A stretch of DNA of 64,000 bases from Ignavibacteriota bacterium (GTDB lineage: Bacteria; Bacteroidota; Ignavibacteria; UBA10030). The DNA is taken from NCBI GenBank assembly GCA_963727825.1, contig CAVSHO010000008.1, positions 130,675 through 194,674 on the forward strand, in the 5' to 3' direction. The translations under genes and the position numbers were made by a program. Numbering within the stretch: the stretch's first letter is position 1; each line of letters begins with the position of its first letter. Positions 28,806 to 34,009 of this stretch are shown here, piece by piece. Under the pieces are notes generated by a model. The model did no database searches. It was given only the letters and a program-made list of their open reading frames with translations, and had not been told where the DNA came from.

Positions 28806-28909
28806 TTTAATATTCCTCCATCCGGTGCAGGTGTTAGTTGGACTTGCTTTTTTCGATGAAAAAGAAATAATACCGCTGCCGGAATAAATTACTACAATAG
28901 CGACATCAG

Positions 28910-28981
28910 TGCGGAGAGAGTGGGATTCTCCCAAAGGGATTCCTCAAGAAACTGAAAGTTTCTTGAGGAAGAACCCACGGT
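28910..28981 (-). repeat. Duplicate of the tRNA-Ser(GGA) 3' end, interrupted by a 42-bp palindromic insertion (28929-28970)
   Basis: TGCGGAGAGAGTGGGATTC|insert|GAACCCACGGT is identical to 29229-29258 once the insert is removed. Confidence 0.9.
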
Positions 28982-29226
28982 TATTGGATTATTCCTTCAT
29001 TCCTTAACCATCGATAACCGGAAATTGACTTATAGAAATTCTCTCTCTGAATGGCTTCAGCCCTTGTTAAAAATTCTTCACTGTAATGCAAGTTGTATGG
29101 TCGATGGCCTTTTGTATATCGAACCTTACCATTATTGTGTTGATTTAAACGATGATTGATATTTTCAGCTGAGCCATAGTAATATGTTCCATCTTTCTGG
29201 CTTCGCAATATGTATGAATAATACAT
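28981..29226 (-). CDS. Small GIY-YIG nuclease (UPF0213-like)
   Basis: YYSYILRS..DG.YYYGS, RL.QHN.G, YTK..RP and EA..RE...K. Catalytic Tyr/Arg/His/Glu appear intact. Confidence 0.93.
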   Translation of the reverse strand: MYYSYILRSQKDGTYYYGSAENINHRLNQHNNGKVRYTKGHRPYNLHYSEEFLTRAEAIQRENFYKSISGYRWLRNEGIIQ

Positions 29227-29230
29227 TTTG

Positions 29231-29317
29231 CGGAGAGAGTGGGATTCGAACCCACGGTACCCTTACGGATACACTACCTTTCCAGGGTAGCCAATTCAAC
29301 CACTCTTGCATCTCTCC
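29231..29317 (-). tRNA. tRNA-Ser(GGA)
   Basis: GGAGAGA acceptor, anticodon arm CTACC-CTGGAAA-GGTAG, long variable arm, T-arm GTGGGTTCGAATCCCAC. Confidence 0.97.
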
Positions 29318-29372
29318 AAGTGATCAAATATCCTAATCTATTATCTCATTTCCAAATAATAGCTGGAAAAAG

Positions 29373-29459
29373 CGGAGAGGGAGGGATTCGAACCCTCGAT
29401 AACCTTGCGGCTATTCCGGTTTTCGAGACCGGTCGATTCAACCACTCTCGCACCTCTCC
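29373..29459 (-). tRNA. tRNA-Ser(CGA)
   Basis: GGAGAGG acceptor, anticodon arm CCGGT-CTCGAAA-ACCGG, long variable arm, T-arm GAGGGTTCGAATCCCTC. Confidence 0.97.
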
Positions 29460-31575: not shown

Positions 31576-31723
31576 TGGAGGCAGAATAATTCTTTGTTGC
31601 TGTTTTACAGTCTCGGCCTGCCTGGTTAATAATTTTATTAAACCACCTGGGTAGGTATTTTTAGTTTGAAGGTCATGTCAGTGCATCTTGATACACTGAC
31701 CACCATTTAATATATTGTTAGCA

Positions 31724-34009
31724 ATGAAGAAACACTTACACTACGTCCGATTCTGCCTAATTTGCCTTTTTCTTGTGGCGGCATTTTTCTTTAGCGGTTG
31801 TTCTGTCTTTTCTTCTATAGGCGATACGATCTCACAGGGGTACGAAAACATGGTTTCGTACTTTAATGGATATTATAATGCCAAAAATCTGTTTAACGAT
31901 GCGGAAGATGAAATCAAAACGGCGGCACTCCTTGCACGAGGAAGAGCAGACTCATCAGGACAGGCTAATCAAATTCCGGGAACAGCGAAACAGAAGCTGG
32001 GGCAGGTAATTGATAAGTGTTCCAATATTCTCGCGTTTCATCCTTCCAGCAGTTTAGTGGATAATTCGCTCTTCCTCATTGGGAAGTCTTTTTTCTATCA
32101 GATGGAGTATCGAAAGGCGGAACGAAAATTTGCCGAATTGTTGGCACAGTTTCCAAACAGTTCATTGGCATTGGAGGCACAACTTTGGTACGCGCGAACA
32201 GAAGAGAAATTGGGGAAATTTAATGACTGCATTCGTTTGAGCGAGGCTACTATATCGGCTGCACAAACAAGTCATGAAAACGAAATCGAAGCTCAAGCCC
32301 ACAAATTGCTCGGCGTGCTCTATCGCCGGATGAGCCAAACAGATAAATCAATTGCTGAATATGAAAAAGTAATTTCTGTTTCATCTGATGATGCAACTAG
32401 AGGTGATGCGCAAATAAGTCTTGGGGATATCTACTTCACAAACGGTCAGTATAAAGAGGCGGCTGAGGTTTATCTCCGAACTGAAGATTACACCTCTGAT
32501 ATTTATTCAAATTATTACAGTAAGTTGCAGGCGTCAATCGCTTATCGTGAAATTGGAGAGCTGAAAAAAGAATTAACTCTGGTTAATGCAATGATTGATG
32601 ATTTTCATAATAGGGAATATTTGTCAGCAATACTCTTTGAACGGGCTAATAACTATATCGCAAGCGGCAGGCGAGATGATGCGATTAACGAGTATATTAT
32701 TATAGACACTTCTTACGCTCACACTGAATACGCCATGCGCTCAGCTTATAAACTTGGAAAGATTTTTGAGACGGAACTTGGACTTTACGATCGGGCACTG
32801 AAATATTATTCGGAAATAAATGTTGCCACAGGACCGAATATTGTAGCAGATGGTCGACGAAAATTCATGGCAATCACGCGCTATTTTGGTGCTCGGCATC
32901 AATTGGATATTGCGGATAGTTTATTATTGGTTCTTAGTGATACAACACGTAAAATAATTCCCGATACGCTTAAAACCATAGCCATTGATTCAATACATCA
33001 AAGGACTACGCAAGTTGATTCGCTCTCTATGATTTCCAATATTGATTCACTTAAAGTGAAGAGCCCTATATCGGATACAACACAACATAAACCTGCCCAA
33101 GTTACTATACATCCCGCGCTCCCGAGCTCTTCACTCTCCGTGACTTCCAATATTGATTCACTTAAAATAAAGAACCATGTTTCGGATACTACACACCATA
33201 AGCTTGCCCAAGATACTGTCCAGGCCACGCTCCCGAGCGCTGATTCGCTTCGTATACTCAAGTCTATTGCCGCGCAGGAATTGGGTGATATTTTTTATTC
33301 AGAAGTTGTGGAACCTGATTCGGCGTTCTATTGGTATAATCGTTCTCTTTTATGGAATTATAAAAATTCCCGCAGCCCGCGTATTCTATTCATACTCGCA
33401 GAGCTTTCTAGAACTAATCCTGATAAGAAATTTCCTGCTCCCGAAGAATACTATTCGCGTCTTGATCATGATTTTCCTGAATCGATTTATGCAGAGGAAG
33501 CGCGTCGATTCCTTAATAAAGCAACCGCTGTGATGAAAACTGATACCGCGTTGGAATACTATGCACAATCCGAAAAACAAATTGATGCAAGACAATATGA
33601 AAAAGCAATTGAAACTCTACGCTCTATTGTTCAGTCATTTCCAAAATCACCCGTAGCGGCTAAGAGTGAATATGCGATTGGATGGATTATGGAAAATCGA
33701 CTTGCACAACCGGAAAGTGCAATGGTGCAATATAAGCGGGTCGTGAAGAATTACGCAGGTACAACATACGCACTTGCCGCATCAAGAAGATTTGATGAAG
33801 TTATACGGCCTGATACAGTAAAAACGGATACAGTAAAGATGAAAAATAATTTACAGATCCGGAAATCGGTTATTCAAGATAGTGTTCAAAGAAATACAAG
33901 TGGATTGGAAAAGGATACGGTGAAACAGTTGCCGATTTCTCCACGGAGTGATATTGAGAATGAACAAAAGAAAAAGGCTGCAACGAAGCCGAAGGTTCTC
34001 GACTATTGA
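31724..34009 (+). CDS. TPR-repeat lipoprotein (PorW/SprE-like)
   Basis: Lipobox FSGC, YFNGYYNA segment, multiple TPRs and D(S/T)-rich linkers. The T9SS-component assignment is tentative. Confidence 0.7.
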   Translation: MKKHLHYVRFCLICLFLVAAFFFSGCSVFSSIGDTISQGYENMVSYFNGYYNAKNLFNDAEDEIKTAALLARGRADSSGQANQIPGTAKQKLGQVIDKCSNILAFHPSSSLVDNSLFLIGKSFFYQMEYRKAERKFAELLAQFPNSSLALEAQLWYARTEEKLGKFNDCIRLSEATISAAQTSHENEIEAQAHKLLGVLYRRMSQTDKSIAEYEKVISVSSDDATRGDAQISLGDIYFTNGQYKEAAEVYLRTEDYTSDIYSNYYSKLQASIAYREIGELKKELTLVNAMIDDFHNREYLSAILFERANNYIASGRRDDAINEYIIIDTSYAHTEYAMRSAYKLGKIFETELGLYDRALKYYSEINVATGPNIVADGRRKFMAITRYFGARHQLDIADSLLLVLSDTTRKIIPDTLKTIAIDSIHQRTTQVDSLSMISNIDSLKVKSPISDTTQHKPAQVTIHPALPSSSLSVTSNIDSLKIKNHVSDTTHHKLAQDTVQATLPSADSLRILKSIAAQELGDIFYSEVVEPDSAFYWYNRSLLWNYKNSRSPRILFILAELSRTNPDKKFPAPEEYYSRLDHDFPESIYAEEARRFLNKATAVMKTDTALEYYAQSEKQIDARQYEKAIETLRSIVQSFPKSPVAAKSEYAIGWIMENRLAQPESAMVQYKRVVKNYAGTTYALAASRRFDEVIRPDTVKTDTVKMKNNLQIRKSVIQDSVQRNTSGLEKDTVKQLPISPRSDIENEQKKKAATKPKVLDY
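33035..33238 (+). repeat. In-frame tandem duplication, period 111 bp (37 aa)
   Basis: SNIDSLKVKSPISDTTQHKPAQVTIHPALPS versus SNIDSLKIKNHVSDTTHHKLAQDTVQATLPS. Confidence 0.85.

What the first reader, a model, noticed from the sequence alone, without database searches (positions are those of the whole stretch)
28910..29317. Integrase-free GIY-YIG cassette exactly bracketed by the tRNA-Ser 3' end
Seen: the 30-mer TGCGGAGAGAGTGGGATTCGAACCCACGGT (T-arm plus 3' acceptor strand of tRNA-Ser-GGA) occurs at 29229-29258 and again at 28910-28981. Between the copies there is essentially only an 81-aa GIY-YIG ORF. Its ATG is 4 nt after the tRNA discriminator (no room for an SD or promoter) and its stop codon overlaps the second repeat by 1 nt, giving a 277-bp unit. 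Known: tRNA 3' duplications normally mark kb-scale integrase islands. Inference: a minimal selfish element in which the nuclease drives insertion or tandem amplification at tRNA T-arms. tRNA 3' processing would release a nearly leaderless mRNA. The second 3' end could also pair with the tRNA 5' half and loop the ORF out. I know of no mechanistic description of this.
Basis: partly seen in the sequence, partly recalled or inferred. Interest (0 to 1): 0.85.

Follow-up and report, generated by a model that had tools for sequence, protein, structure and literature searches.

The report
Integrase-free nuclease cassette on tRNA genes
A 319-base cassette, one tiny nuclease-family gene plus a spare, hairpin-split copy of the end of a serine tRNA gene, sits behind that tRNA, is missing from the closest relatives examined, and belongs to a large family at many tRNA genes that likely spreads by its own nuclease instead of an integrase.

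Summary
Real, but misdescribed. The second tRNA-Ser(GGA) 3' end (28910-28981) is split at the T-loop centre by a 42-bp double hairpin, so the unit is 319 bp, not 277. The 81-aa GIY-YIG gene is under purifying selection. This tRNA end is filled in 5 of 17 related loci and empty in the closest genome. A near-identical cassette sits in a more distant host (synonymous difference 0.19 against 0.67 for nfeD), and a close variant sits on tRNA-Ser(TGA): lateral spread and retargeting. Of 116 homologous loci, 102 lie at tRNA genes; across all sets 24 tRNA types, both ends, always co-oriented, arrays up to 14 units. Nuclease clades track tRNA identity. A nested sister clade forms 280-345-bp inverted-repeat units that interrupt genes. 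Closest known: phage SegB and Ssn/NTS; it is a member of neither. Nuclease-driven spread is inferred, not shown. The scan noted this family before on other DNA.

The parts
29230..29317 (-). Intact tRNA-Ser(GGA) gene (host gene; its 3' 30 nt, 29229-29258, are the first repeat copy)
   Evidence: ARAGORN; Rfam RF00005 55.7 bits
28981..29226 (-). 81-aa single-domain GIY-YIG nuclease gene, Slx1/UPF0213-like fold, no DNA-binding domain, no own ribosome-binding site
   Evidence: PF01541; model pLDDT 94; best folds 1zg2 and Slx1, none at E<=0.001; dN/dS 0.04-0.22
28971..28981 (-). Spare tRNA copy, 5' piece (T-stem 5' strand and TTC), overlapping the stop codon by 1 nt
   Evidence: sequence; alignment A2
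28940..28970 (-). Insert hairpin 1: 14-bp perfect stem, 3-nt loop (loop inverted relative to the otherwise identical insert of L044)
   Evidence: fold; covariation; alignment
28929..28939 (-). Insert hairpin 2: 4-bp stem, 3-nt loop
   Evidence: fold; double-hairpin parse
28910..28928 (-). Spare tRNA copy, 3' piece (T-stem 3' strand, acceptor 3' strand, discriminator)
   Evidence: exact 19-nt repeat D4
28910..29228 (-). Whole 319-bp unit, absent at the empty alleles
29205..29231 (-). Predicted RNA hairpin that buries the AUG (lead only)
   Evidence: -8.4 kcal/mol, 7% of synonymous variants fold as well; 6 of 11 homologs at or below 7.3%
28823..28909 (-). Shortened spacer to nfeD: 87 nt against 195-215 nt in four empty relatives; remnant of a small membrane-protein ORF
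29372..29459 (-). Upstream tRNA-Ser(CGA) gene, no cassette (context; likely same transcription unit, inferred)
   Evidence: promoter-like matches one search are near chance level

Best explanation
The 319-bp unit is a minimal selfish cassette, a conserved 81-aa GIY-YIG gene plus a hairpin-split spare copy of the tRNA-Ser 3' end, whose patchy and host-discordant distribution points to lateral spread, and it likely spreads because its nuclease nicks or cuts the T-arm of its cognate tRNA gene so that host recombination would copy the cassette in while rebuilding the tRNA end. Shown: boundaries, filled and empty alleles, host-discordant similarity, retargeting between tRNA-Ser genes, purifying selection, clade-to-tRNA fidelity, tandem arrays. 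Inferred: the enzyme is active; it recognises the arm as a DNA hairpin (single-stranded or cruciform), as its sister family Ssn recognises its own hairpins; the cut falls a few bases 5' of the T-stem, which would set the ORF/repeat junction 9-12 nt before the T-loop centre; expression is low read-through from the tRNA promoter; arrays come from unequal recombination between the repeats. The double hairpin is a separate 22-45-bp insertion type that lands in tRNA loops, is tolerated only in spare copies, and splits the T-loop motif there.
For: Filled in 5 of 17 loci that held tRNA-Ser(GGA), empty in the closest genome G013. L043: cassette ORF synonymous difference 0.19, flanking nfeD 0.67, while empty G013 has 0.22-0.47 in four flanking genes. 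L044: 83% identical protein and the same insert but for an inverted 3-nt loop at tRNA-Ser(TGA), a site that is empty in G000. dN/dS median 0.09 in 33 of 55 computable pairs. 102 of 116 homologous loci at tRNA genes (98 by ARAGORN, 4 by eye); 150 of 150 ORFs co-oriented with the tRNA; 105 of 134 units repeat >=15 nt of the resident tRNA (mean 30.9 nt against 0.46 for other tRNAs). The window's clade is 35 of 35 at tRNA-Ser (FastTree 0.979; 3 labelled by eye), and 26 of 27 new phylum-wide loci were Ser or Ser-type. First insert lies 9-12 nt from the inner repeat end in 23 of 49 3'-type units. Arrays of 14 and 7 units. A nested sister clade interrupts unrelated genes with no other ORF. Precedents: SegB recognises GGTTCRANTCC, homes and amplifies (PMC2330249, PMC13096335); SsnA cuts ssDNA a few bases 5' of its hairpin (PMC11893778).
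Against: No activity data. The filled allele keeps an intact T-arm, so classical homing immunity is missing. Both tRNA-derived pieces of the spare copy match the resident tRNA even after a switch to tRNA-Glu (L221), while ORF and insert are separated by host-type bases, which a single integration step does not explain. Fidelity to one tRNA type could also come from selection for a compatible tRNA end. No circle or excision joint was seen (contigs only). Versus G001, G004 and G009 the ORF is as diverged as flanking genes, which fits vertical descent with losses there. No close homolog on plasmids, phages or viral contigs, so the vehicle is unknown. Trees rest on 81 columns.
Confidence: 0.55

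Rival explanations
1. Passenger kept for the host: the cassette moves only by ordinary homologous recombination anchored on the tRNA gene, and the nuclease is retained because it restricts incoming single-stranded DNA that carries tRNA ends or hairpins, as SsnA modulates transformation.
For: Purifying selection; sister relation to Ssn-like proteins; SsnA lowers integration of transforming DNA (PMC11893778, results read); absence from plasmids and phages.
Against: Eight separate loci with different paralogs in one genome, 2 of 10 broken; patchy presence; arrays of near-identical units; gene-interrupting sister clade.
Confidence: 0.18
2. The nuclease is mainly the mover of the small double hairpins (a REP/RAYT-like pair); hairpin hits on tRNA genes are survived only where the gene end was duplicated, and the nuclease gene collects at those scars.
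For: 87 of 102 alignable spare copies carry a hairpin insert; 37 of 118 inserts parse as two-fold symmetric double hairpins with GAA/AAA then TTC/TTT loops; ORF-less units exist (own tRNA-Ala, L004); insert stems covary.
Against: The same double hairpin accompanies unrelated nuclease clades and also lies away from tRNAs; the ORF is never between the two hairpins in the loci examined; some arrays lack a T-loop insert (L115); covariation in perfect palindromes can arise by template switching (recalled).
Confidence: 0.17
3. Remnant of an integrase island, or a satellite moved in trans by an island integrase that uses T-loop att sites.
For: Repeat limits resemble T-loop att sites (recalled); a serine-recombinase-like ORF lies 3' of tRNA-Ser(GGA) in one distant genome, G040.
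Against: Same boundaries in 11 close homologs at three isoacceptors; 24 tRNA types and both gene ends; tRNA abuts a small ORF and nfeD in empty relatives; no tyrosine-recombinase motif in 10 regions where more DNA lies near this tRNA (motif test only).
Confidence: 0.05
4. RNA-level system: the protein acts on tRNA or the transcript switches between two acceptor pairings to regulate tRNA-Ser.
For: Minimum-energy fold pairs the tRNA 5' strand with the second copy; strict co-orientation.
Against: Alternative form has a 42-nt T-loop insert; 49 of 136 units are 5'-type; SsnA does not act on RNA (PMC11893778); best folds are DNA nucleases.
Confidence: 0.05

Closest known systems
SegB of phages T4/T6 (free-standing GIY-YIG homing endonuclease; PMC2330249, PMC13096335)
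   Same: GIY-YIG gene inside a tRNA transcription unit; target is the T-loop motif that the insert splits here; homing and segmental amplification; poor translation start.
   Different: SegB has a C-terminal DNA-binding part, is phage-borne, favours no tRNA isotype and brings no duplicated tRNA end; this protein is 81 aa, chromosomal, tRNA-type-faithful, with no PHROG match.
Ssn nucleases with NTS/SRM repeats (cd10448; PMC11893778)
   Same: Single-domain GIY-YIG next to DNA hairpins; cognate pairing of enzyme and hairpin; authors note an IS-like NTS-ssnA-NTS layout.
   Different: No SRM in the flanks; NTS-flanked proteins form another branch and are 27-42% identical; the paper's main text has 0 hits for tRNA.
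Standalone Slx1-like / UPF0213 proteins (YhbQ type; 1zg2, 1ywl; PMC1564403)
   Same: Minimal GIY-YIG fold; best sequence and fold matches.
   Different: UPF0213-like genes in the survey have no tRNA or repeat context and branch apart.
Fungal mitochondrial mobile endonuclease ORFs with a duplicated gene end, and Allomyces double-hairpin elements (recalled; named in earlier scan notes; only a reference-list entry seen)
   Same: Endonuclease gene plus a copy of the gene end that keeps the host gene working; double hairpins that appear mobile.
   Different: Organelle protein genes, long endonucleases, diverged (immune) replacement end; here the functional tRNA end is unchanged.
tRNA-targeting integrase islands (recalled)
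   Same: Direct repeat of the tRNA 3' end starting near the T-stem.
   Different: No recombinase, 0.3 kb, both tRNA ends used, tandem arrays.

Membership tests
GIY-YIG superfamily | PF01541 domain above cut-off with conserved Tyr/Gly/Arg/His/Glu | tested here: met
   52.8 bits, cut-off 22.6; Y5, Y16, Y17, G18, R26, H30 invariant and E62 nearly invariant in 24 homologs; catalytic roles recalled
Ssn (cd10448) | Single domain under 150 aa | tested here: met
   81 aa
Ssn (cd10448) | SRM/NTS repeats in the flanks | tested here: not met
   Published SRM pattern: 0 hits in the flanks of 195 surveyed ORFs (it also missed the NTS-like flank of L162), 0 of 8 genome hits within 700 nt of a tRNA
Ssn (cd10448) | Falls in the Ssn clade | tested here: not met
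   Three NTS-flanked stand-ins group apart (SH-aLRT 95; tRNA plus inverted-repeat class 90). Neither SsnA itself nor the CDD model was available
Ssn (cd10448) | Site-specific ssDNA cleavage beside the hairpin | not testable with these tools
   needs assay
SegB-type homing endonuclease | N-terminal GIY-YIG plus C-terminal DNA-binding (NUMOD3) region | tested here: not met
   81 aa, one domain; TIGR01453 14.5 bits against cut-off 56; SegB layout from PMC2330249 discussion
SegB-type homing endonuclease | Located in or beside tRNA genes | tested here: met
SegB-type homing endonuclease | Cuts dsDNA at the T-loop motif and is inherited non-reciprocally | not testable with these tools
   comparative signs of lateral spread only
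tRNA-integrated genomic island | Recombinase gene inside the repeats | tested here: not met
   only the 81-aa ORF lies between the repeats
tRNA-integrated genomic island | Direct repeat of the tRNA end and empty alleles | tested here: met
Insertion sequence / MITE | Terminal inverted repeats and target duplication | tested here: not met
   none around the window's unit; inverted repeats are present only in the sister clade
Insertion sequence / MITE | Excised or circular intermediate | tested here: inconclusive
   no such joint in 8 runs held as contigs

The most novel reading that the evidence does not exclude
Single-domain, 80-aa GIY-YIG nucleases are the mobilising enzymes of a previously undescribed class of minimal mobile elements: one branch homes into and amplifies at tRNA genes, each clade reading one tRNA arm as a DNA hairpin; a derived branch has become a free, 280-345-bp inverted-repeat insertion element with no transposase; and the same enzymes move the 22-45-bp double hairpins.
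Probability: 0.3. Interest if true: 0.92.

Novelty: new variant of a known kind. Interest (0 to 1): 0.76.

Why it matters
If the nuclease drives spread, these are among the smallest autonomous selfish elements, they give a function to a very large unannotated protein group (14,867 50%-identity clusters match at E<=0.001, context unknown; 157 of 401 sampled genomes of the phylum have a match), they explain the partial tRNA copies that are usually read as integrase scars, and they offer a natural panel of 9-kDa nucleases with predictable, tRNA-type-specific targets. The pairing of clade and tRNA makes the mechanism directly testable with oligonucleotides.

Tried and rejected
Rfam: nothing but tRNA at the repeat or at 20 loci without a called tRNA (one group I intron, one partial tRNA). 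PHROGs no match; NCBIfam below cut-off. Plasmids 6 of 72,556 and phages 18 of 50,697 records, all at 32-43% identity; viral contigs none. Reads: 8 of 21 listed runs laid, all contigs; no circle, excision or RNA cover of the ORF, which proves nothing. Promoter and terminator scan: 6 promoter-like sites against 2.9 +/- 1.6, no terminator. AUG-burying hairpin: inconclusive. Decayed island: rejected (see rivals). Exact ends and target site of the inverted-repeat sister class could not be fixed to the base. Literature: 10 searches found no description of this layout; subscription journals are largely missing, 2 of 14 supplement files of PMC11893778 were not searched, and the cyanobacterial SDR paper named in earlier notes was not held. 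The ESM Atlas look-up did not complete.

Full report
1. Observation. tRNA-Ser(GGA) lies at 29230-29317(-). An 81-aa ORF at 28981-29226(-) starts 4 nt after the discriminator and its stop overlaps a second copy of the tRNA 3' end by 1 nt. That copy is not a contiguous 30-mer: it is 11 nt + 42 nt insert + 19 nt, the insert lying exactly at TTC^GAA of the T-loop without target duplication. The period is 319 bp. The insert folds as a 14-bp and a 4-bp hairpin on top of the T-stem. Rfam gives no family for it. A public contig reproduces 28820-28974 without a difference, and a related one spans the ORF end, insert and repeat.

2. Protein. PF01541 at 52.8 bits; model pLDDT 94; best fold matches are UPF0213 (1zg2) and Slx1 catalytic domains (TM-score 0.65-0.71 by query length, none at E<=0.001); sequence matches in the PDB are 1zg2 and 1ywl. 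Residues recalled as the GIY-YIG active site are conserved in 24 homologs. dN/dS against the window is 0.04-0.22 in 7 of 10 pairs (3 saturated), median 0.09 in 33 of 55 pairs overall; 13 of 195 surveyed ORFs have an internal stop.

3. Own genome. PF01541 finds 14 places: 10 short ORFs at 8 tRNA loci (Ser twice, one with two tRNAs, Gln, Asp, Pro twice, Leu twice), 2 short ORFs flanked by NTS-like or other palindromes away from tRNAs and 2 long proteins. All 10 are within 400 nt of a tRNA gene, a zone that covers 1.1% of the genome. Two mirror layouts occur: tRNA-ORF-spare 3' end, and spare 5' end-ORF-tRNA; an ORF-less spare copy follows tRNA-Ala(CGC).

4. Filled and empty alleles. Of 30 loci returned for the neighbourhood, 17 held tRNA-Ser(GGA); 5 are filled at the 3' end (G000, G001, G004, G009, G024, the last with a stop codon) and 12 are empty, among them the closest genome G013. 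In five empty genus members the tRNA is followed directly by a small ORF and nfeD. Ten regions with more DNA near this tRNA showed no tyrosine-recombinase motif; one distant genome has a serine-recombinase-like ORF there. Two results point to movement. In metagenome locus L043 the cassette at the same site differs by 0.19 per synonymous site while nfeD differs by 0.67; empty G013 differs by only 0.22-0.47 in four flanking genes. In L044 a cassette with 83% protein identity and the same insert, but for an inverted 3-nt loop, sits on tRNA-Ser(TGA), whose 3' end is empty in G000. Against this, the ORFs of G001, G004 and G009 are about as diverged as their flanking genes, compatible with vertical descent.

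5. Family survey. The protein matched 182 places in 37 of 41 genomes; 150 were listed. I fetched all listed places but one 533-aa frame. Of 116 loci, 98 have a called tRNA within 500 nt, 4 more show tRNA pieces at contig ends or a gap, 11 are an inverted-repeat class (9 by pattern, 2 by eye), 2 are UPF0213-like and 1 is NTS-flanked. With the loci added and 15 duplicates dropped, 150 of 150 tRNA-linked ORFs are on the tRNA strand; 136 units (87 3'-type, 49 5'-type) cover 24 tRNA types; 105 of 134 with enough flank repeat at least 15 nt of the resident tRNA, mean 30.9 nt against 0.46 for non-cognate tRNAs. Among 102 units with an alignable spare copy 87 carry a hairpin insert; of 118 inserts 46 are in the T-loop, 25 D-loop, 16 anticodon loop, 31 elsewhere; 37 parse as double hairpins, first loop mostly GAA/AAA (19 of 33), second TTC/TTT (25 of 35), so the element is two-fold symmetric. 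In 12 close homologs the insert keeps 99.3% of pairs with changes on both sides in 6 of 25 pairs. Arrays: 14 units of 297-299 bp in G002 and 7 of 305 bp in G019. Kin are not independent, and the sample is chosen by similarity to the query.

6. Phylogeny. On 81 columns, nuclease clades track tRNA identity. The window's clade (0.979) has 35 of 35 members at tRNA-Ser, four isoacceptors, both sides; other Ser-linked lineages exist elsewhere in the tree. As a forward test, the 27 new best loci of a 401-genome phylum search gave 23 with tRNA-Ser within 500 nt, 1 at 525 nt, 2 contig ends with Ser-type repeats and 1 at tRNA-Glu; the Glu case nests in the Ser clade and its spare copy is Glu-type. In a 67-row IQ-TREE subset the three NTS-flanked proteins (95) and the three UPF0213-like proteins (85) branch apart from the tRNA plus inverted-repeat class (90). 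The inverted-repeat clade (0.995; 99) consists of 277-345-bp units between the repeat cores whose only ORF is the nuclease; in 9 of 11 the two flanks read as consecutive parts of one gene (integrase-like, RAYT-like and others, named from recalled motifs).

7. Mechanism. Shown: a conserved, intact nuclease gene; host-matched tRNA repeats; gain, loss, retargeting and amplification; no recombinase. Inferred, 0.55 overall: the enzyme nicks or cuts its cognate tRNA arm, host recombination copies the cassette in and rebuilds the tRNA end, the old end becomes spare and collects hairpin inserts, and the repeats then amplify. The spacing of 9-12 nt between repeat end and insert (23 of 49) fits a cut just 5' of the T-stem. 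Open problems: no immunity of the filled allele, host-type bases between ORF and insert, unknown vehicle, no circles seen.

8. Known systems. SegB recognises the T-loop motif, homes, and amplifies tRNA segments (PMC2330249: abstract and first part of the discussion read; PMC13096335: abstract and sections 9-10 read), but is a two-domain phage enzyme without isotype preference. Ssn proteins are single-domain ssDNA nucleases cutting 5' of cognate hairpins (PMC11893778: parts 1-3 of 11, passages, 12 of 14 supplement files searched; one supplement passage calls SLX1-like proteins the sister clade, sparsely characterised in bacteria). PMC1564403 (passages) describes standalone Slx1-like proteins without this context. 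PMC3787672 (passages) only cites double-hairpin elements. Mitochondrial mobile ORFs, island att sites and cyanobacterial SDRs are recalled or taken from earlier notes. Ten searches found no description of this layout. Earlier scan notes report the same family in other genomes; they supplied the Ssn and SegB leads and are not counted as support.

9. Verdict. Observation partly confirmed, interpretation partly supported. It works like a homing-endonuclease element with a gene-restoring duplication, is a member of neither SegB nor Ssn, and is best filed as a new variant of a known kind, interest 0.76; the bolder reading, a new class of GIY-YIG-mobilised minimal elements, has probability 0.3.

Noticed in passing
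L082, L108, L109, L111, L116, L118, L131, L135, L138, L144, L145, L009: Sister clade of small GIY-YIG genes bounded by about 16-bp terminal inverted repeats, 277-345 bp, inserted inside other genes, with short ORF-less derivatives in L111 and L116: insertion-sequence-like units with no transposase.
   Followed up: partly
G000:C7:171193-171411 and G000:C9:23052-23273 (L196, L198); G000:C14:46550, G000:C1:104743: Two Ssn-like genes flanked by inverted NTS-like or other palindromic repeats, plus ORF-less NTS pairs, in the same genome.
   Followed up: partly
G000:C8:62922, C11:97353, C11:100389, C11:81663, C9:246864: Double hairpins and a 20-bp GC-rich palindrome also lie away from tRNAs, nested in other hairpin repeats; a TCCCG...CGGGA hairpin pattern has 256 strand hits against 32-42 in shuffles, 42 near tRNAs.
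   Followed up: partly
G000:C10:74900-75500 and G000:C7:252440-252670: Near-full spare copies of tRNA-Gln and tRNA-Ala in which the anticodon arm is replaced by a hairpin and the T-loop carries a double hairpin.
   Followed up: partly
L115 (G002:C2:365027-369130), L159 (G019:C9:1492226-1494256): The longest arrays (14 and 7 units) are in assemblies with 6 and 9 contigs; short-read assemblies may collapse such arrays.
   Followed up: no
window 28823-28909: About 110 nt of a small membrane-protein ORF upstream of nfeD are missing right after the spare copy; L043 shows a similar-sized loss with apparently different ends.
   Followed up: partly
L214:4114-5719: Serine-recombinase-like ORF (N-terminal motif recalled) directly 3' of tRNA-Ser(GGA) in G040.
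   Followed up: no
L167, L169: Long tandem arrays of composite hairpin repeats between tRNA-Ser and a GIY-YIG ORF.
   Followed up: no
window 33019-33240: Two 111-bp tandem copies (81% identical) inside the 764-aa ORF 31715-34009.
   Followed up: no
L012:482-691: Group I intron match just downstream of a GIY-YIG homolog, apparently inside a tRNA gene of a Patescibacteria contig.
   Followed up: no
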